Shown here piece after piece: positions 2,880 to 42,261 of a stretch of 64,000 nucleotides of DNA. The notes beneath the pieces were generated by a model that saw only the letters and a list, made by a program, of their open reading frames with translations, was not told the DNA's origin and did no database searches. The translations under genes were made by a program, and so were the position numbers. The stretch lies in the sequence record MZ501067; one strand, given 5' to 3'. Every line of letters starts with the position of its first letter. The first letter of the stretch is position 1. Source of the DNA: Escherichia phage FriedrichZschokke.

Positions 2880-4562
2880 TTAAACCATTACAGTAAATCG
2901 ACCAACTTTCTTCATTTGAAGATGCTGACCATATTCTTGTGGGTCATGGTCTTTATGCGAAATTATAAAAACATTAGTATTTTTCATTGAATTTATAATA
3001 TTCGCTACACCTTTAATACCTTCGGCATCAAATGACCCATCAAACACTTCATCGAGTATTAATGTACTAATACTAACACCAGATACAATAGAAGCAATAT
3101 CACGCCAAGTAAATAAAAGAGCAATATCAATTCTTGCCTTTTCACCTTCACTAAATGAAGCATAACTAAAATCTTCACGACCACGGGATTTAATTGTCTC
3201 ATTAAATTCTTCATCTAATGTAAACACATAATCCGCTTCCATTATTTTAAGATAGTGGTTAATCTGCTTATTAAATAATGGAATGTACTTTTTAATAATA
3301 GCACCTTTAATACCAGAATCTTTGAGCATATCAGTCAAAATTCCTCGGTGGTATTTTTCCATTACTAAATTAGTTTTTGTCTTAACAATTTTATCAAGTT
3401 CTTCTTGAAGCAGTGCTATTTCATCAGCATGGTCAATAAACTCAGAAGATGCTTTTTCTATAGCTGCTTTAACTTTTTTAGCTTTATCTACTGTCGTGAT
3501 TAGAGATTGCTTTTTATTGCGAATATCATTTGCCAACGACTGCTGGGTTTTAATATTATCTCGGTATTCATCAACAAGAACTTTTAAATTATCACGGTGT
3601 GTTGAAAGCTGTTCAAACGAATGCGTGCATTCAGAAACTTTATCTTTAATTTTAGAAACAACTTTATCACCGGAACTCAATTGTGACAAACAGGTTGGAC
3701 ATAATCCACCTTCGTGATACATATTAATGACTTTATTATACGAGTCAATTTTTGATTTAATTAAAACTGCTTCTTGACCGATTTTATTAAATGCATCAGT
3801 CGGGTCTTCGTCTAAAACAATATTAACTAATCTTTCATTAGCTTCTTCTATTTCCGATTTTAGCGTTCTAGCTTCTTTTGCCAAATCATCATACATATTT
3901 TGCAGACGAGTAAGATTGTCACCCGTTAATTTTTTCTGGCGTTCAACGTTATCATTATATATTTTAATTTGTTGGATAATACTATCTTTTTTAACATCAA
4001 GCACTTGGTTTTGTGAATTTAATTCACGTATTAGTGCTTTATTAAGCTTATCCATTTCAGCTAATGTTCCTACCTCAAGCAGGTCTTCCACAAGCTTTCT
4101 TCGTGCAGGGGTCGACAAACCCATGAAAGGGGTATACCCTGCTGTACCAAGGACAACAATCTGCTTGAAACTGGCATATGACATTCCGATAAGCTGTTCA
4201 AATTCTGCTTGGAAATCTTTACTGCTGGCAGATTCATTAAGACGTGTACCGTTAACGGTGATTTCGAAAACGTTTGGTTTTTGTCCTCTTTTGATATAGT
4301 ACTTTTTCTCATCATATTCCATCCACAGTTCAACTAAAAGTTCTTTCTTATTTGTGCTGTTTATTAATTGACCTTTCTTTACATCACGAAATGGTTTGCC
4401 AAAAAGCCCAAATGTGATGGCTTCTAACATAGTAGACTTACCACCGCCATTTCGTCCAGTAATAAGAGTTTTTTGAACCTTATCTAATTGAATGTCAATA
4501 GGATTTCCACCTACTGACATTATATTTTGATACCTAACTCGGTTTAATTTAAAATTCTTCAC
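2880..4562 (-). CDS. 46: Recombination endonuclease subunit gp46 (Rad50/SbcC-like ATPase)
   Basis: 560 aa ORF, Walker A GRNGGGKST near N-terminus, long coiled coil, C-terminal signature region; same length as T4 gp46. Confidence 0.93.
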   Translation of the reverse strand: MKNFKLNRVRYQNIMSVGGNPIDIQLDKVQKTLITGRNGGGKSTMLEAITFGLFGKPFRDVKKGQLINSTNKKELLVELWMEYDEKKYYIKRGQKPNVFEITVNGTRLNESASSKDFQAEFEQLIGMSYASFKQIVVLGTAGYTPFMGLSTPARRKLVEDLLEVGTLAEMDKLNKALIRELNSQNQVLDVKKDSIIQQIKIYNDNVERQKKLTGDNLTRLQNMYDDLAKEARTLKSEIEEANERLVNIVLDEDPTDAFNKIGQEAVLIKSKIDSYNKVINMYHEGGLCPTCLSQLSSGDKVVSKIKDKVSECTHSFEQLSTHRDNLKVLVDEYRDNIKTQQSLANDIRNKKQSLITTVDKAKKVKAAIEKASSEFIDHADEIALLQEELDKIVKTKTNLVMEKYHRGILTDMLKDSGIKGAIIKKYIPLFNKQINHYLKIMEADYVFTLDEEFNETIKSRGREDFSYASFSEGEKARIDIALLFTWRDIASIVSGVSISTLILDEVFDGSFDAEGIKGVANIINSMKNTNVFIISHKDHDPQEYGQHLQMKKVGRFTVMV

Positions 4563-12217: not shown

Positions 12218-14031
12218 TGGTGTTTAACCCTATGCATGATTTCTTTATTTTTGCCGAGATTAAATCCGCGTTCGTTCGGATTTCCCAAATAACCACATGT
12301 TCTTCTTATTGTGTTCATCTTTTTAGGATCAGTTTCTCCACAAATAGAACAAACAAATCCATTTTCAGTAGGAGTCATTTCATGGGTACTTCCACATGTA
12401 AAACATTTATCTACTGGCATATTAACACCAAAATAATCTAAATGTTGTGCAGCATAATCCCATACAGCCTCAAGACCTTTTAAGTTATTTTTCATATCAG
12501 GAAGTTCAACATAAGAAATGTGACCACCTGTCGCAATGAAATGATATGGCGCTTCACGAGAAATCTTTTCAAACTGAGTAATATTTTCTTCTACTGAAAC
12601 GTGGAAACTGTTAGTGTACCAGCCTTTATCGGTAACATCTTTTACACTTCCATATTTTTCTGTATCAAGTTTACAGAAGCGATAACAAAGGTTTTCAGCA
12701 GGAGTAGAATACAAACTAAAAGCAAACCCAGTTCTTTCAGTCCACTGTTTAAGACGAGCATTCATTTTAGTTAAAATTTCTCGTCCAATATCACGACCGA
12801 CAAGAATATTCAATTCGTGAATACCAATGTATCCTAAGGACACTGAACTTCTACCATTTTTAAATAACTCAATTATATCGTCATCAGGTTTAAGACGAAC
12901 CCCGAATGCACCTTCTTGGTAAAGAATAGGAGCAACAGTCGCTTTAACTCCTTTTAAGGAACTAATTCTACACATCAATGCTTCAAAACATAAATCCATT
13001 CGTTCATTGAACAATTCAACAAATTTCTGCTCATTGAATTGAGTTCCAATATAAGAATCTAATGCGATACGAGGAAGATTCAGTGTTACAACACCGAGAT
13101 TATTACGTCCATCAAGAATTTCATTACCGGTTGAATCTTTCCACACACTCAAGAAACTACGACAACCCATTGGAGAAACAGGAATAGATGAGCCGGTGAT
13201 AGCTTTATTGTTCTTAGCCGAAATGATGTCAGGATACATTCTTTTGCTTGCGCACTCTAAAGCAAGCTGCTTAATATCATAGTTCGGGTCGTCTTTATAA
13301 AGATTAATACCTTCTTCAACGAACATAACAAGTTTAGGGAAAATAGGAGTTATCCCATCACGACCAAGACCTTTAATACGATTTTTCAGAATTGCTTTCT
13401 GAATCATTCGTTCAGTCCAGTCAGTTCCCGTACCAAATGTAATTGTTACAAAGGGTGTTTGTCCGTTTGAACTAAAGAGAGTATTTACTTCATATTCATA
13501 AGCTTGGAATGCATCGTATACATCTTTTTCTGTTTTAGATTGAGCATAATTCAATGCATCAGCGATTTGCCATTTTTCTGCATCCTCAATATGTTTTGCA
13601 TAGGTGCGTTTAACATAAGGAGAAAGTACTTTATCTACATTAGCAAAAGTCGTTCCGCCGTATTGGTGGGAAGCAACCTGTGCAGTAATTTGTGCCATAA
13701 TTGCAGTAGCAACGCCAATTGATTTAGGAGTTTCAATCTGCGCATTACCTAGCTTAAATCCGTTCTCAAGCATTCCTTTTAAATCTACTAAACAACAATT
13801 AGTAAATGGAAGAGCAGGGGAATAATCAATATCGTGGAAATGAATAATTCCGCTTTCATGCGCTTTCATAATAAAAGACGGGACCATATTTTTGGCAATG
13901 TGTTTAGACACAATACCAGCCATAAGGTCCCGTTGAGTTGGAAAAACACGAGAATCTTTATTGGCATTCTCGTTTAAAAGGTCTTTATTAGTTTTATGAA
14001 TCAATCCTTCAATTTCTTTTTCAATTGTCAT
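12214..14031 (-). CDS. nrdD: Anaerobic ribonucleotide reductase NrdD, uninterrupted
   Basis: Continuous 605 aa ORF with C-terminal glycyl radical motif RTCGYLG and Cys-rich zinc site. Confidence 0.93.
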   Translation of the reverse strand: MTIEKEIEGLIHKTNKDLLNENANKDSRVFPTQRDLMAGIVSKHIAKNMVPSFIMKAHESGIIHFHDIDYSPALPFTNCCLVDLKGMLENGFKLGNAQIETPKSIGVATAIMAQITAQVASHQYGGTTFANVDKVLSPYVKRTYAKHIEDAEKWQIADALNYAQSKTEKDVYDAFQAYEYEVNTLFSSNGQTPFVTITFGTGTDWTERMIQKAILKNRIKGLGRDGITPIFPKLVMFVEEGINLYKDDPNYDIKQLALECASKRMYPDIISAKNNKAITGSSIPVSPMGCRSFLSVWKDSTGNEILDGRNNLGVVTLNLPRIALDSYIGTQFNEQKFVELFNERMDLCFEALMCRISSLKGVKATVAPILYQEGAFGVRLKPDDDIIELFKNGRSSVSLGYIGIHELNILVGRDIGREILTKMNARLKQWTERTGFAFSLYSTPAENLCYRFCKLDTEKYGSVKDVTDKGWYTNSFHVSVEENITQFEKISREAPYHFIATGGHISYVELPDMKNNLKGLEAVWDYAAQHLDYFGVNMPVDKCFTCGSTHEMTPTENGFVCSICGETDPKKMNTIRRTCGYLGNPNERGFNLGKNKEIMHRVKHQ

Positions 14032-14501
14032 TTTAAACTCTTTCTAAGCTGCTTCTTAAATGAAGCTATTAACTGTGTTTTGGTGTCAGATTCATTATAT
14101 TCAAATCCTCTTTGAAGCATCTCGGCCATCATTTCCTCTTTTCCTAAACGAGAAAATTCCTTTGATTTATCTCCAACAAAGTTAGGGTGAATATTATTTT
14201 GGGTGTAATCGGATTTTAAATAAGTAAGTAAATTTTCTAACCATTCAAGATAATCAACACCTTGTCCCTTTAAGCCAGAACGATTAAATTTATGCTTCAT
14301 TTGACCTTCTGCGGCATTGCAGAGATTACAAAGCAATCCACGTACCTTTCCTGCTTTTGGTCCATTTAATTCATGGTCATGGTCGAGGTGATTAGCTTGA
14401 ACGTCAGGATTTAGTTCTCGTTGGCAAATTAAGCATTTACCATTTTGTGCATCATAAAATTTCTGTTTTTCTTCTTTATATAATTTGCCAGTCAATAACA
14501 T
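14028..14501 (-). CDS. 49: Endonuclease VII (Holliday junction resolvase) gp49
   Basis: 157 aa ORF MLLTGKLYKEEKQKFYDAQNGKCLICQRELNPDVQANHLDHDHE... matches T4 endo VII. Confidence 0.93.
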   Translation of the reverse strand: MLLTGKLYKEEKQKFYDAQNGKCLICQRELNPDVQANHLDHDHELNGPKAGKVRGLLCNLCNAAEGQMKHKFNRSGLKGQGVDYLEWLENLLTYLKSDYTQNNIHPNFVGDKSKEFSRLGKEEMMAEMLQRGFEYNESDTKTQLIASFKKQLRKSLK

Positions 14502-32357: not shown

Positions 32358-32719
32358 TATAAGCTCTCAGTAAAGGTACGAGCAATAACGTCGCGCTGCT
32401 GTTCCGGAGTCAGAGAGTTAAAGCGAACTGCATAACCGGATACACGGATGGTCAGCTGCGGATATTTTTCCGGATGCTTAACTGCATCTTCCAGAGTTTC
32501 ACGACGCAGAACGTTAACGTTCAGGTGTTGACCACCTTCAATTTTAACTGTAGGCTGTGGCTCAATTTCAATTTCACGAGCATGCAAACCGTAGAAAATT
32601 TCTGGGTCTACAAAAGAGTCCTCTTTAAAGGTTTTAGAGACAATAATTCGTGCTTGAATACCATCTTCAAAATAAATAGTACCTTTATGTGTGCCTTCAA
32701 GAATTTGATATGCTTTCAT
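32357..32719 (-). CDS. Autonomous glycyl-radical cofactor (GrcA/YfiD-like)
   Basis: 120 aa ORF whose C-terminal ~60 aa ([59 protein letters not shown]) carry the RVSGY glycyl radical motif. Confidence 0.85.
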
Positions 32720-32726
32720 ATAAACC

Positions 32727-33053
32727 TCAATTAGAAAATAAATTTATCCAAGATTGTTCTTTAATTAAAAATGGCTCAGAATCATATGCCATTAAACTTT
32801 GGGTGATTAGTCCTTTAAAAGGTCCATCAATAAATTCCATGGTAAAATATGGAATTTTATTCATTAACTGTGCGTTAGGAGCAGTGCACAAAACTCTGCA
32901 TCCTTTGAATACACCTTTTTGTAATTTGTATTGCTTGGGATAAAATTCGCTTAAAATGTTGTTATTTGCCAAAATTTCAAAATGATTTACCAATTTATTT
33001 TTAATAGTTTTTGGCGAAAAATAGAGATATTCGAAAAGCTGTGTGTCTGTCAT
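32727..33053 (-). CDS. Hypothetical protein
   Basis: ORF 32727..33107 trimmed to ATG at 33053 (MTDTQLFEY), overlapping the upstream stop in TAATG. Confidence 0.45.
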
Positions 33054-33649
33054 TATTGCATTCCGATTACGAAAAACTGTGGACGAGTAATACCACCAAT
33101 GCAACATTTACTATTACAGCAGTAGTGTACAGTGTCAATATGGACGCTATAAATCTTATCCATATCAGGAGATTTGACAGGCTCATCAATTATATACAAA
33201 ATTCGCGAAAGCGATAAACCTCTGAACTTGCTTCCTTTATTACCAATAAAACTGCGTACAGAATCAGTAAATAAACGAAAACGTATATCATCATTAGAAT
33301 AACGCGAAAATTCCTTTTTAATGTTATTTGCAGAAATTTTAGCGTAAGCTGAAGTATTAGAAAGAACAATAACTGTTCCGCCATCATACAGCCAATTAGC
33401 AGCAAAGTTAGTCACAGCAATTGATTTACCAGATTGACGTCCACCATCTATACGAAGTGTGCAGTACTGCTTAAGTAATTCTTCAAATGGCGGGATATAT
33501 TCGTTTTTACAAATTTCTTCTACTCTAGCATCAGAATGGTGTGTAAAAGCATTCATCAGGGATAGATACGGGCCAGTTAAAAATGTTCTCATATTTTCTC
33601 TCTTAATTTTTGGGCCATTCCATGGCACATGAGTTGTCCATTCCTGCAT
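33053..33649 (-). CDS. Small P-loop NTPase-like protein
   Basis: Walker A-like GGRQSGKS and Walker B-like LYIIDEP; start uncertain. Confidence 0.45.
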   Translation of the reverse strand: MQEWTTHVPWNGPKIKRENMRTFLTGPYLSLMNAFTHHSDARVEEICKNEYIPPFEELLKQYCTLRIDGGRQSGKSIAVTNFAANWLYDGGTVIVLSNTSAYAKISANNIKKEFSRYSNDDIRFRLFTDSVRSFIGNKGSKFRGLSLSRILYIIDEPVKSPDMDKIYSVHIDTVHYCCNSKCCIGGITRPQFFVIGMQ

Positions 33650-33727
33650 TACCCATTACCGCGCTTTGGCTCGACCTTATCACAGGTTGACGGGAATACC
33701 TCAAATGAGGTCCAGGCTGTTCCCATA

Positions 33728-34201
33728 TTATTTGAACGATTTAACGTACTGAATAGAACCTTTACTATTTACAAAGGCAATTTTACCATTTTTACTATAC
33801 ATGGTAGCAGTACGTTGATAACCATAAGTTTGTTTACCAGATTGATAACCAACTAATGCGAAATTATCTTCGCCCATTTTATTCTGTTTAGCGCGAATGC
33901 GTTCATGACCATGTGCCATAAGAACCTTAGCATCACCGGTTGCAATGGATCGACGAGTTTTTTCATCTTCAACTGTATTAACAAAGTCGTCAAATGAATC
34001 AAATTTAGCATGAGATTTATTATACAGTTTTCCATCTACTGCATAATTATATCCCTGTACATCCATCTCAACTTCTGTACCATCATCCAATACAGCAGTG
34101 ATTTTTTGACCTTTTTTAAATTTCAAAAGATCAGTAAAAGATTCAGCAATAATTTGAGAATTAATAGCTGCTTCAGTGATAAATTCTTGATATGTTTTCA
34201 T
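33728..34201 (-). CDS. Capsid-targeted internal protein (IP-family), 157 aa
   Basis: N-terminal capsid targeting sequence MKTYQEFITE as in T4 internal proteins; body not recognised. Confidence 0.6.
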   Translation of the reverse strand: MKTYQEFITEAAINSQIIAESFTDLLKFKKGQKITAVLDDGTEVEMDVQGYNYAVDGKLYNKSHAKFDSFDDFVNTVEDEKTRRSIATGDAKVLMAHGHERIRAKQNKMGEDNFALVGYQSGKQTYGYQRTATMYSKNGKIAFVNSKGSIQYVKSFK

Positions 34202-34217
34202 ATGATTCCTTTAATTT

Positions 34218-34535
34218 TTATTCTTTAGGAAAATTTTTAGAATATGCGTCGTAAAGCTTATTTCCAATACGACGAAAAACTCTAGCTGCAAAACGATTTT
34301 CTGGGTTTTTAATCATAATTTGCATCATATAAGTACCCGCGTCTGAAAGAGCTTCTTCATAGTACCCGTTAATTTCTTTAAGAGTCCTACGTTTACCACC
34401 AGGACCATCAACAGTGATTTTCCATTTACCTGTAGAAGTGCGACTCGGCGGCTCAACTTGTTCAATCCAAATATAACCGCCTTCTACACGTTGTCCTGCA
34501 GCAGATTCTGCAATAAATTCTTGATATGTTTTCAT
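34218..34535 (-). CDS. Capsid-targeted internal protein (IP-family), 105 aa
   Basis: N-terminal MKTYQEFIAE capsid targeting sequence. Confidence 0.6.
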   Translation of the reverse strand: MKTYQEFIAESAAGQRVEGGYIWIEQVEPPSRTSTGKWKITVDGPGGKRRTLKEINGYYEEALSDAGTYMMQIMIKNPENRFAARVFRRIGNKLYDAYSKNFPKE

Positions 34536-34544
34536 ATGTTTCCT

Positions 34545-34961
34545 TTAAATGTAAATATTTTTACCGTAATACTTATACCAATGTGGTTTCATTAAAATTT
34601 TTTCATCAAGTCGTTGTTGACTCAATTTAATAGCTGATTTGCATGGATTATAATCATTTTTCCATTCTACTGGAATATCGCTGATGTCAGGAACTTCAGT
34701 ATCTTTTATACTGAACCCTCGTTTTAAGCATTCCGTTATAATGTCTAATTGACGCTTTCGCAAAAATTCTAACTTATCGTAAAAGAAAGTAACATGACCA
34801 GAACCTAAAATAAATTTAGAAGATATTTTAAAATCTTTAACGCGCTTACCGTTTGCCACATGCTTACGAACTATACCAAAAACACGCGGCAATTCACGGT
34901 ATTCTGCGATTAAATGTTGATCAGCAAGTTCAGATACTAAAGTCAAATTAATACGAGTCAT
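34545..34961 (-). CDS. denV: Endonuclease V (pyrimidine dimer DNA glycosylase) DenV
   Basis: 138 aa [31 protein letters not shown]... matches T4 DenV, with divergence in the C-terminal half. Confidence 0.9.
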
Positions 34962-34985
34962 TTTATCCCTCCAAGTAACTGTGAA

Positions 34986-35014
34986 TATACTATCACAATT
35001 CTAGGAGAAAGTAA
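34986..35014 (-). promoter_or_regulatory. T4-type early promoter upstream of denV
   Basis: Minus strand TTTACT-N17-TAGTAT. Confidence 0.4.
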
Positions 35015-35020
35015 ACAACT

Positions 35021-35989
<969 letters not shown>

Positions 35990-36008
<19 letters not shown>

Positions 36009-41711: not shown

Positions 41712-41897
41712 CTATTCACCTTTAGAAATTTTATCCATAACGATAGCAATTAAACCAATTAAAAATGCTACTACAAGTGAAAAAACATTTTCTGCTGTAG
41801 TCAATAATCCGCATATAAATCCAACAAACATTGAAAAACTAAAAGCGGAAGCAGAAATTGCAATAGCAACATTTCGAATTAATTCACAACGTTTCAT
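41712..41897 (-). CDS. Small membrane protein
   Basis: 61 aa ORF with hydrophobic segments. Confidence 0.45.
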   Translation of the reverse strand: MKRCELIRNVAIAISASAFSFSMFVGFICGLLTTAENVFSLVVAFLIGLIAIVMDKISKGE

Positions 41898-41925
41898 TTT
41901 ATTCTCCTCAGTAGTTGATAGGGTA

Positions 41926-41954
41926 ATAGTATCACAACTAAAACCCTATGTAAA
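41926..41954 (-). promoter_or_regulatory. T4-type early promoter
   Basis: Minus strand TTTACA-N17-TACTAT. Confidence 0.45.
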
Positions 41955-41973
41955 CAACTTTGTGAAATATTTA

Positions 41974-42261
41974 TTACAAAAGATTTTTAGCAATAATCTT
42001 GAGATGTGCCGCAGAAATGTGTTTAGCTTTAAACAACGCAGTTTCTTCAGCAGGAGAGATAACGATTGTAGCACCATCCTTTTTAGCAGACCACCCATCA
42101 CCTAGGTAAACAGTACCTTTGATTTCTTCGCCATCAACCAGACTAATCATTGGTTTACCTTCTCGTCCTTTATTTGCTTTAATAACTTCAGAAGTAAGAG
42201 TAGCCTCGGTAATGGTAGAAACCGGGGTAGTTGTAGAAGTAAATTCTTTGAAAGTTTTCAT
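41974..42261 (-). CDS. ipI: Internal protein I (IPI), capsid-packaged anti-restriction protein
   Basis: 95 aa ORF MKTFKEFTSTTTPVSTITEATL...; same length and position (between the tRNA cluster and 57B) as T4 IPI. Confidence 0.8.
   Translation of the reverse strand: MKTFKEFTSTTTPVSTITEATLTSEVIKANKGREGKPMISLVDGEEIKGTVYLGDGWSAKKDGATIVISPAEETALFKAKHISAAHLKIIAKNLL

What the first reader, a model, noticed from the sequence alone, without database searches (positions are those of the whole stretch)
33728..34535. Two divergent capsid-targeted internal proteins next to denV
Both ORFs begin with the T4 capsid targeting sequence (MKTYQEFITE / MKTYQEFIAE) that directs proteins into the prohead and is cleaved by the prohead protease, but their bodies do not match what I recall of T4 IPII or IPIII. 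IP loci are hypervariable and encode proteins injected with the DNA; T4 IPI (present here at 41974..42261) blocks a host restriction system. The 157 aa protein (VLMAHGHERIRAKQNKMGEDNFALVGYQSGKQTYGY...) may be an uncharacterised injected effector. Gene order here (two IP genes, denV, e) also differs from the T4 order as I recall it (denV, ipII, ipIII, e).
Basis: partly seen in the sequence, partly recalled or inferred. Interest (0 to 1): 0.5.

Follow-up and report, generated by a model that had tools for sequence, protein, structure and literature searches.

The report
Known phage internal proteins Ip4, Ip10
The two genes are the already catalogued "internal head proteins" Ip4 and Ip10 of T4-like phages, which are probably packed into the capsid and injected with the DNA; their host targets are unknown, but the genes and their shuffled order are ordinary for this phage group.

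Summary
On the minus strand, 33728-34201 encodes a 157 aa protein and 34218-34535 a 105 aa protein. Both start with the T4 IPII/IPIII capsid targeting sequence (MKTYQEFITE and MKTYQEFIAE). Neither resembles IPII, IPIII, IPI or the other beyond about residue 13. The gene order is e, denV, 105 aa, 157 aa, vs.8, against e, ipIII, ipII, denV, vs.8 in T4.

Neither protein is new. The window is a Tequatrovirus. The 157 aa protein is Ip4 (Pfam DUF7412, PHROG 3155). It is 99.4% identical to the annotated ip4 of phage T2 and occurs in 470 phage records, more than IPIII (261) or IPII (198). The 105 aa protein is Ip10: 100% identical to PP01 Ip10, found in 189 records.

The locus is a known cassette-shuffling hotspot. 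A 61-nt direct repeat (ribosome site plus targeting-sequence DNA) marks the exchange points.

Function is inferred by analogy. T4 Ip1, Ip2 and Ip3 each inhibit a different GmrSD type IV restriction enzyme, and another such protein inhibits McrBC. A 2025 study tested ip4-10 against GmrSD variants and found no reproducible effect.

Structure prediction and fold searches were uninformative. Verdict: real, correctly read, already known, with low to moderate interest.

The parts
33728..34201 (-). ip4: 157 aa internal head protein precursor (Ip4 / DUF7412 family)
   Evidence: ORF. Pfam DUF7412 E 1.6e-95, full length; PHROG 3155 'internal virion protein' E 1.9e-101. 99.4% identical to the T2 gene annotated ip4 and to PP01 ipIV. 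64 invariant columns across 13 homologues of 60-81% identity.
34172..34201 (-). Codons 1-10 of ip4: capsid targeting sequence MKTYQEFITE, with an I-T-E prohead-protease motif. A second conserved I-A-E motif ends at residue 20.
   Evidence: Y4, F7, I8 and E10, the residues reported as critical for targeting and processing (PMC9026906), are all present.
34218..34535 (-). ip10: 105 aa internal head protein precursor (Ip10 family)
   Evidence: ORF. PHROG 3966 E 2.7e-34. 100% identical to PP01 'Ip10 internal head protein' and 71% to SP18 Ip10.
34506..34535 (-). Codons 1-10 of ip10: capsid targeting sequence MKTYQEFIAE, identical to that of T4 IPII and IPIII
   Evidence: The T4 record X04567 annotates residues -10 to -1 of IpII and IpIII as the removed signal peptide.
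34166..34226 (.). Copy 1 of a 61-nt direct repeat (ribosome binding site plus targeting-sequence DNA) at the 5' end of ip4
   Evidence: the repeat finder family D1, 82% identity between the copies. Phage AndreasVesalius (Bas42) equals the window minus everything between the two copies.
34500..34560 (.). Copy 2 of the 61-nt direct repeat, at the 5' end of ip10; it runs into the last codons of denV
34545..34961 (-). denV (endonuclease V), directly upstream of ip10 with a 9-nt spacer; a diverged allele
   Evidence: Pfam Pyr_excise, PHROG 1183. 78% amino-acid and 79% nucleotide identity to T4 denV, while the flanks are 94-96% identical.
34962..35020 (-). e-denV spacer: T4-type early-promoter-like TTTACT-N17-TAGTAT overlapped by a hairpin (PeSL-like element). 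It is the only such element in the denV-ip10-ip4 block.
   Evidence: Sequence. Fold -18.3 kcal/mol, z -3.8. Published PST/T4 PeSL consensus is TTTACW-N17-TAYWAT (PMC4122927). T4 has such an element before each of ipIII, ipII and denV.
35529..35549 (-). Two TATAAATA late-promoter motifs just upstream of e; the only ones upstream of the ip genes
   Evidence: No terminator-like site on the minus strand between e and ip4. That late transcripts read through to ip10 and ip4 is inference.
35021..35515 (-). e (T4-type lysozyme), the upstream boundary of the variable block
33053..33649 (-). vs.8 homologue, the downstream boundary of the variable block. Homology to T4 resumes exactly at the ip4 stop codon.
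   Evidence: PHROG 1488. Window 32700-33728 aligns to T4 at 94%.
41974..42261 (-). ipI (IPI, GmrSD inhibitor) at the second internal-protein locus
   Evidence: Pfam IPI_T4 E 7.3e-54; ORF.

Best explanation
The two genes are ip4 (157 aa, DUF7412) and ip10 (105 aa), two members of the known catalogue of T4-type internal head proteins. They sit in one of the two known cassette-shuffling internal-protein loci of a Tequatrovirus.

Proposed mechanism:
1. They are transcribed with denV from the early-promoter/hairpin element in the e-denV spacer, and late from the promoters upstream of e (inferred).
2. The 10-residue N-terminal capsid targeting sequence carries each precursor into the scaffolding core of the prohead (inferred from an intact, experimentally defined signal).
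3. The prohead protease gp21 cuts after Glu10 (I-x-E). In Ip4 it may also cut after the conserved Glu20. This leaves basic mature proteins of about 15.5-16.5 kDa (Ip4*) and about 10.8 kDa (Ip10*) (inferred).
4. The mature proteins are ejected with the DNA (inferred).
5. In the cell each most likely binds and blocks one specific first-line host defence against the modified phage DNA. The best candidate is a subtype of type IV, modification-dependent restriction enzyme, as shown for T4 Ip1, Ip2, Ip3 and Bas37_0260 (analogy only; target unknown).

The difference in gene order from T4 comes from homologous exchange at the conserved ribosome-site-plus-targeting-sequence DNA and at promoter/hairpin elements.

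Confidence by step: identity as Ip4 and Ip10, about 0.97; packaged, cleaved and injected, about 0.85; specific anti-defence inhibitors, about 0.55.
For: Identity:
- Pfam DUF7412 and PHROG 3155 'internal virion protein', both full length.
- 99.4-100% identity to genes annotated ip4/ipIV in T2 and PP01, and 100% to PP01 ip10.
- The window is 100% identical over 3 kb to Tequatrovirus vB_EcoM_R5505.

Signal:
- The first 10 residues match T4 IPII/IPIII in 9/10 (Ip4) and 10/10 (Ip10) positions.
- Published mutagenesis shows the first 10 residues of IPIII suffice for packaging. Residues 4 and 7 govern targeting, residues 8 and 10 govern processing, and gp21 cuts after L/I-x-E (PMC9026906). All of these residues are present here.
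- Distant Ip4 homologues from metagenomes (34-42% identity) have a different but equivalent N-terminus, MNFxxFLNE|S. So a cleavable propeptide is conserved with the body rather than being a local relic.
- Mature pI is 9.1-9.6, like IPII and IPIII at 9.5-9.65.

Locus:
- The genes lie between e and vs.8. Related phages carry other internal-protein cassettes at the same place: T4 ipIII-ipII, T2 ip4 alone, PP01 ip10-ip4, Bas45 ip10 plus others, Bas37 none.
- Breakpoints fall at the 61-nt repeat.

Function by analogy:
- T4 Ip1, Ip2 and Ip3 each inhibit one distinct GmrSD enzyme (PMC12373910).
- IPIII is needed for T4 to infect ECOR17, and works without its targeting sequence when supplied in the cytoplasm (PMC9391042).
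- Bas37_0260, another unrelated protein with the same signal, inhibits McrBC (bioRxiv 10.1101/2025.11.20.689424).
Against: - I found no proteomic or genetic evidence that Ip4 or Ip10 is in virions, cleaved or injected (searches found nothing). Repoila et al. 1994 could not be read.
- ip4-10 were tested against a panel of active GmrSD variants with no reproducible inhibition (PMC12373910, Supplementary Fig. 9).
- T2 carries an Ip4 that is 99.4% identical, yet is restricted by GmrSD-ECOR21 and GmrSD-ECOR17 in that study. If Ip4 is an anti-restriction protein, its target is something else.
- Neither protein resembles any characterised inhibitor in sequence or predicted fold.
- Ip4 is nearly invariant within Tequatrovirus, which is not what rapid sequence-level arms-race evolution would predict.
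- No late promoter lies directly upstream of either gene.
Confidence: 0.7

Rival explanations
1. Ip4 and Ip10 are packaged, but they serve the phage particle rather than attacking the host. As abundant basic proteins of the scaffolding core, they would help head assembly or DNA condensation and ejection, with no specific host target.
For: Both mature proteins are basic (pI 9.1-9.6), like the classical internal proteins, which are present at about 300 copies each. T4 IPIII mutants assemble heads at about half the normal rate, have about 40% of normal burst and accumulate polyheads (PMC9026906). Ip4 is the commonest cassette at this locus (470 records) and is nearly invariant within Tequatrovirus. 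It is also conserved as far as distant metagenomic T4-like phages. That pattern fits a housekeeping role better than an arms-race role. No GmrSD target was found for ip4-10.
Against: Some related phages have no internal-protein gene at all at this locus (Bas37: e-denV-vs.8), or lack ip4 (T4) or ip10 (T2, Bas42, Bas44). So neither protein is needed for making heads. All four proteins with this signal whose function is known are defence inhibitors, including IPIII itself.
Confidence: 0.2
2. The proteins are not packaged. The targeting-sequence codons would be only a recombination scar that comes with the conserved ribosome-site cassette, and the proteins would act as ordinary cytoplasmic early proteins.
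For: The conserved DNA block extends upstream of the ATG, so it could persist for recombination or translation reasons. The genes are co-transcribed with the early gene denV and have no late promoter of their own.
Against: All residues shown to matter for targeting and cleavage are intact in both proteins. Distant Ip4 homologues keep a functionally equivalent but different propeptide with a conserved x-x-E|S site, which a mere DNA scar would not explain. E10 and E20 are invariant across 13 Ip4 homologues. Fusing these 10 residues to foreign proteins is enough to package them (PMC9026906).
Confidence: 0.05
3. One or both are injected enzymes, like the ADP-ribosyltransferase Alt, that modify a host component instead of binding and blocking a nuclease.
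For: Ip4 is larger than most internal proteins. Among close homologues it has a well conserved core with an LMAHGHxRI motif and an NKxGEDNFAL-GYQSGK block.
Against: The histidines and acidic residues of those motifs are not conserved in the distant homologues; only G, N, K, A, T, Q and Y positions stay invariant. There is no match to any enzyme family in Pfam, NCBIfam or PDB sequences. The Ip4 structural model is too poor to support any fold assignment.
Confidence: 0.05

Closest known systems
Ip4 (ipIV) of phage T2 and many Tequatrovirus, Klebsiella and Salmonella T4-like phages; Pfam DUF7412, PHROG 3155
   Same: The 157 aa protein is this family. It gives a full-length match, is 99.4% identical to T2 Ip4 and 100% identical to the PhiZZ23 protein, and sits in the same locus.
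   Different: Nothing of substance. Only the neighbours differ: T2 has e-ip4-vs.8 without denV or ip10.
Ip10 of phages PP01, SP18, VR20 and VR25; RB69 ORF124c; PHROG 3966
   Same: The 105 aa protein is 100% identical to PP01 Ip10, 95% to RB69 ORF124c and 71% to SP18 Ip10. PP01 has the same ip10-ip4 adjacency.
   Different: Here denV lies between e and ip10; PP01 lacks denV at this place.
T4 IPII and IPIII (Ip2, Ip3)
   Same: Same 10-residue capsid targeting sequence with the same protease site. Same locus between e and vs.8. Similar size range and basic charge. Same conserved ribosome-site-plus-signal DNA.
   Different: No detectable similarity in the mature parts. In T4 each gene has its own promoter/hairpin element and lies upstream of denV. 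Ip2 and Ip3 have known GmrSD targets; ip4 and ip10 do not.
T4 IPI (Ip1, IPI*), also present in this window at 41974-42261
   Same: Packaged and injected small protein with a cleavable N-terminal propeptide. It is the model for the function proposed here.
   Different: Different locus. Different, longer propeptide (MKTFKEF...ITE, cleaved at residue 19). Unrelated mature sequence.
Bas37_0260 (phage KarlGJung), an McrBC inhibitor with the same signal
   Same: MKTYQEFIAE signal followed by an unrelated small body. It shows that targets of this protein class are not limited to GmrSD.
   Different: 77 aa, near-neutral (computed pI about 5.8-6.5), encoded at the ipI locus. No similarity to Ip4 or Ip10 beyond the signal.

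Membership tests
T4-type internal head proteins (proteins carrying the capsid targeting sequence) | N-terminal capsid targeting sequence of about 10 residues (MKTYQEFIAE type), with the residues needed for targeting at positions 4 and 7 | tested here: met
   MKTYQEFITE and MKTYQEFIAE, with Y4 and F7 present in both. Requirement taken from PMC9026906.
T4-type internal head proteins (proteins carrying the capsid targeting sequence) | Prohead protease (gp21) cleavage motif L/I-x-E at the end of the signal | tested here: met
   I8-T9-E10 in Ip4 and I8-A9-E10 in Ip10; a second I-A-E ends at residue 20 of Ip4. Motif taken from PMC9026906.
T4-type internal head proteins (proteins carrying the capsid targeting sequence) | Encoded in one of the two variable internal-protein loci of T-even genomes | tested here: met
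   The genes lie between e and vs.8, the place of ipII and ipIII in T4. The two-locus rule is stated in PMC2839356.
T4-type internal head proteins (proteins carrying the capsid targeting sequence) | Physically present in the mature head in processed form | not testable with these tools
   No virion proteomics for Ip4 or Ip10 was found in the searchable literature.
T4-type internal head proteins (proteins carrying the capsid targeting sequence) | Ejected into the host with the DNA | not testable with these tools
   Needs experiment.
T4-type internal head proteins (proteins carrying the capsid targeting sequence) | Prohead protease gene 21 and scaffold core genes present in the same genome | not tested
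   Judging by the T4 map (my knowledge), gene 21 should lie outside this 64 kb window; I did not scan the window for it. The review calls the head core genes part of the core genome of T4-related phages (PMC9026906).
Ip4 / DUF7412 | Full-length match to the family profile above its curated threshold | tested here: met
   Pfam PF24183: 317.9 bits against a cutoff of 27, residues 1-157 on profile positions 1-158. PHROG 3155 E 1.9e-101.
Ip10 / PHROG 3966 | Full-length similarity to proteins annotated Ip10 | tested here: met
   100% identical to PP01 Ip10, 71% to SP18 Ip10. PHROG 3966 E 2.7e-34.
T4 IPII / IPIII | Sequence similarity of the mature protein | tested here: not met
   BLASTP aligns only residues 1-13/14.
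Injected inhibitors of type IV restriction enzymes (functional class of Ip1, Ip2, Ip3, Bas37_0260) | Homology to a characterised inhibitor | tested here: not met
   No similarity beyond the signal. No PDB sequence or fold match to IPI* or any other inhibitor.
Injected inhibitors of type IV restriction enzymes (functional class of Ip1, Ip2, Ip3, Bas37_0260) | Relieves restriction by a defined enzyme | not testable with these tools
   Published test of ip4-10 against GmrSD variants found no reproducible effect (PMC12373910, Supplementary Fig. 9). I could not confirm that the sequences used there equal those in the window.

The most novel reading that the evidence does not exclude
Ip4 (DUF7412) is the commonest cassette at this locus and is conserved as far as distant uncultured T4-like phages. 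It could be an injected inhibitor of a widespread first-line defence that is neither one of the GmrSD variants already tested nor yet recognised as a target of internal proteins. Ip10 could target another such system. In that case the pair would be ready-made probes for finding new defence systems in wild Enterobacteriaceae.
Probability: 0.4. Interest if true: 0.5.

Novelty: already known. Interest (0 to 1): 0.2.

Why it matters
Injected internal proteins are the phage's first countermeasure, since they act before any phage gene is expressed. Recent work shows that each one studied so far disarms one specific restriction enzyme. Ip4 and Ip10 are still orphans without a target. Ip4 is more widespread than the well-studied T4 proteins, so finding its target would help explain host range in therapeutic T4-like phages. 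This window adds no new sequence or arrangement: identical genes are already deposited and named.

Tried and rejected
1. Structure prediction. The AlphaFold2 model of Ip4 from 13 sequences is poor (mean pLDDT 50), so it was not used for fold search. The Ip10 model is moderate (mean 62, core residues 21-76 at 72-85).

3. Profile searches against PDB sequences gave nothing below E 0.1.

5. A possible metal-binding HGH motif in Ip4 was rejected because it is not conserved in distant homologues.

6. An exhaustive HMMER search of 1.84 billion representative proteins with mature Ip4 found only 5 clusters, all of the same family. There is no link to any cellular protein family.

7. Comparison with the McrBC inhibitor Bas37_0260 showed no similarity beyond the signal.

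8. The spacer downstream of ip4 (33650-33727) folds no better than shuffled sequence (z -0.09), so it is not claimed as an element.

9. Literature searches for Ip4 or Ip10 by name and for virion proteomics found nothing specific. Repoila et al. 1994 is not held.

Full report
**What is there**

The window is a Tequatrovirus (T4-like coliphage). Window 33000-36000 is 100% identical to Escherichia phage vB_EcoM_R5505 and 99.9% to Citrobacter phage PhiZZ23. 716 phage records match this stretch.

On the minus strand the order is as follows:
- e lysozyme (35021-35515)
- denV (34545-34961)
- a 105 aa ORF (34218-34535)
- a 157 aa ORF (33728-34201)
- the vs.8 homologue (33053-33649)

The spacers are 9 nt between denV and the 105 aa ORF and 16 nt between the two ORFs. 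Each holds an AGGA-type ribosome site.

Both ORFs begin with the T4 IPII/IPIII capsid targeting sequence, as MKTYQEFIAE and MKTYQEFITE. They are the only such ORFs in the window.

**Check against T4**

T4 has e, ipIII, ipII, denV, vs.8, so the reported difference in gene order is real. BLASTP of the two proteins against IPIII and IPII, and against each other, aligns only the first 13-17 residues.

**What they are**

The 157 aa protein:
- It matches Pfam DUF7412 over its full length (E 1.6e-95) and PHROG 3155 'internal virion protein'.
- tblastn finds it in 470 phage records. It is at least 95% identical in 306 of them and about 70% identical in Klebsiella, Salmonella and Serratia T4-like phages.
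- The annotations read ip4, Ip4 or ipIV in T2, PP01, ime09, RB32, Shfl2 and Kha5h.

The 105 aa protein:
- It matches PHROG 3966.
- It is 100% identical to 'Ip10 internal head protein' of PP01, 95% to RB69 ORF124c and 71% to Ip10 of SP18, VR20 and VR25. It occurs in 189 records.

For comparison, T4 IPIII occurs in 261 records and IPII in 198. Ip4 is thus the commonest cassette at this locus, and T4 is the less typical phage.

According to later papers, the numbering of internal proteins beyond Ip3 goes back to Repoila et al. 1994. 'At least 10' variants are credited to that paper and 'more than 30' to Comeau et al. 2007 (PMC12373910; PMC2839356). I could not read the 1994 paper itself.

**How the locus varies**

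Comparison with six relatives shows a cassette system:

| Phage | Order at the locus |
|---|---|
| T2, Bas44 | e-ip4-vs.8 |
| Bas42 | e-denV-ip4-vs.8 |
| PP01 | e-ip10-ip4-vs.8 |
| window | e-denV-ip10-ip4-vs.8 |
| Bas45 | e-orf-denV-orf-ip10-orf-vs.8 |
| Bas37 | e-denV-vs.8 |
| T4 | e-ipIII-ipII-denV-vs.8 |

- Homology to T4 is 94-96% in the flanks and stops exactly at the ip4 stop codon on one side and in the e-denV spacer on the other.
- Inside the block, the only DNA shared with T4 ipII and ipIII is 45-58 nt covering the ribosome site and the targeting-sequence codons, at 91-98% identity.
- In the window this DNA forms a 61-nt direct repeat, 34166-34226 and 34500-34560. Bas42 differs from the window by precisely the segment between the two copies. 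That is the expected product of homologous exchange between them.
- The e-denV spacer carries a T4-type early-promoter-like TTTACT-N17-TAGTAT overlapped by a hairpin (-18.3 kcal/mol, z -3.8). It fits the published PST/T4 PeSL consensus TTTACW-N17-TAYWAT at 11 of 12 positions (PMC4122927).
- T4 has one such element before each of ipIII, ipII and denV. The window has it only before denV.
- Such elements at the two internal-protein loci, and their suggested role in shuffling, are already in the literature (PMC2839356).
- About 58 records share the ip4-ip10 junction region. Most ip4 phages have denV-ip4 directly adjacent.

**How it most likely works**

The steps below are inferred from sequence unless marked.

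1. Expression. The two genes have no promoter element of their own. They presumably ride on the denV early transcript and on late transcripts from the two TATAAATA motifs upstream of e (35529-35549). No terminator-like site intervenes on that strand.
2. Targeting. It has been shown for IPIII that its first 10 residues suffice to package even foreign proteins. Residues 4 and 7 are needed for targeting and residues 8 and 10 for processing (PMC9026906). Y4, F7, I8 and E10 are present in both proteins.
3. Cleavage. gp21 cuts after L/I-x-E, and both proteins have I-x-E10. Ip4 also has I-A-E20, and both E10 and E20 are invariant in 13 homologues.
4. Products. The mature proteins are basic (pI 9.1-9.6), like IPII and IPIII.
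5. A conserved propeptide. An exhaustive search of 1.84 billion representative proteins with mature Ip4 found only five clusters. The distant ones (34-42% identity) keep a different but equivalent N-terminus, MNFxxFLNE|S. A cleavable propeptide is therefore a conserved property of the family and not a local scar.
6. Function in the host, by analogy only.
   - T4 Ip1, Ip2 and Ip3 each inhibit one distinct GmrSD type IV restriction enzyme, with no cross-protection (PMC12373910).
   - IPIII is required on ECOR17 and works from the cytoplasm without its signal (PMC9391042).
   - The unrelated Bas37_0260, which has the same signal, inhibits McrBC (bioRxiv 10.1101/2025.11.20.689424; sequence compared).

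**What argues for caution**

- The same 2025 study tested 'ip4-10' against active GmrSD variants and found no reproducible interaction (Supplementary Fig. 9).
- T2 carries an Ip4 that is 99.4% identical as its only gene at this locus, yet it is restricted by GmrSD-ECOR21 and GmrSD-ECOR17.
- If Ip4 and Ip10 are anti-defence proteins, their targets therefore lie elsewhere.
- Ip4 is almost invariant within Tequatrovirus. This and its breadth leave room for a structural or assembly role, as once described for IPIII. Against that, related phages do without ip4, ip10 or any internal-protein gene at this locus.

**Attempts to get at function directly**

- The AlphaFold2 model of Ip4 is unreliable (pLDDT 50).
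- The Ip10 model is moderate (pLDDT 62; three strands, a long helix, one more strand).
- No PDB, Pfam or NCBIfam family is hit above noise.
- A candidate HGH motif in Ip4 is not conserved in distant members.

**Verdict**

The finding is real and was read correctly, but it describes two already named and widely deposited genes in a locus whose polymorphism has been known for three decades. Novelty: already known. The remaining interest is that both are still orphan injected proteins in a field now assigning targets to this class, and that Ip4 is the most widespread of them.

Noticed in passing
L003 (T4 NC_000866) 3720-3747, compared with window 34536-34563: The 28 nt upstream of T4 ipII are identical to the ribosome site plus the last 19 nt of the window-type denV allele (AAAAATATTTACATTTAA, reading K-N-I-Y-I-stop). 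In T4, however, denV lies downstream of ipII and ends differently (…GKAIY-). This looks like a relic of an earlier denV-ip junction like the one in the window.
   Followed up: partly
window 34545-34961: denV is only 78% (protein) and 79% (DNA, and only over part of the gene) identical to T4 denV, while the flanking e and vs.8 regions are 94-96% identical. Bas37 carries the window-type allele at 98.9%. So denV itself behaves as an exchangeable cassette. It is absent from this place in T2, PP01 and Bas44.
   Followed up: partly
window 34962-35020: A promoter-plus-hairpin (PeSL-like) element sits in the e-denV spacer. An inverted 46-nt match to the T4 ipIII-ipII spacer reflects its palindromic stem. 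T4 has three such elements in this locus; the window has one.
   Followed up: partly
window 33053-33649: The vs.8 homologue has a Walker-A-like GGRQSGKS motif and weak similarity to the ATPase part of large terminase subunits (PHROG 2, E 5.7e-6; Pfam AAA_14, E 0.015). Its start codon is annotated differently in different records (540 or 597 nt), and T2 has it split into two fragments.
   Followed up: no
window 41897-41974 versus L004 (R5505) 13984-14360: The window lacks the 77 aa ORF with the same signal (MKTYQEFIAEAADVKVEF...) that R5505 carries next to ipI. That ORF is a close homologue of the McrBC inhibitor Bas37_0260. The window is also about 1.5 kb shorter than R5505 between the two internal-protein loci. 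So the window is not R5505, despite 100% identity around denV.
   Followed up: partly
window 34142-34201 (Ip4 residues 1-20): Ip4 has a second prohead-protease motif (I-A-E20) after the one at E10, and both glutamates are invariant in 13 homologues. The mature N-terminus may therefore be Ser21 rather than Ala11, recalling the 19-residue propeptide of IPI.
   Followed up: partly
window 33728-34535: Both proteins give sub-threshold hits to curli-inhibitor families: Ip10 to Pfam CsgH and PDB 2n59, Ip4 to NCBIfam 'curli synthesis inhibitor'. This is probably coincidence, since the scores are far below the cutoffs.
   Followed up: no
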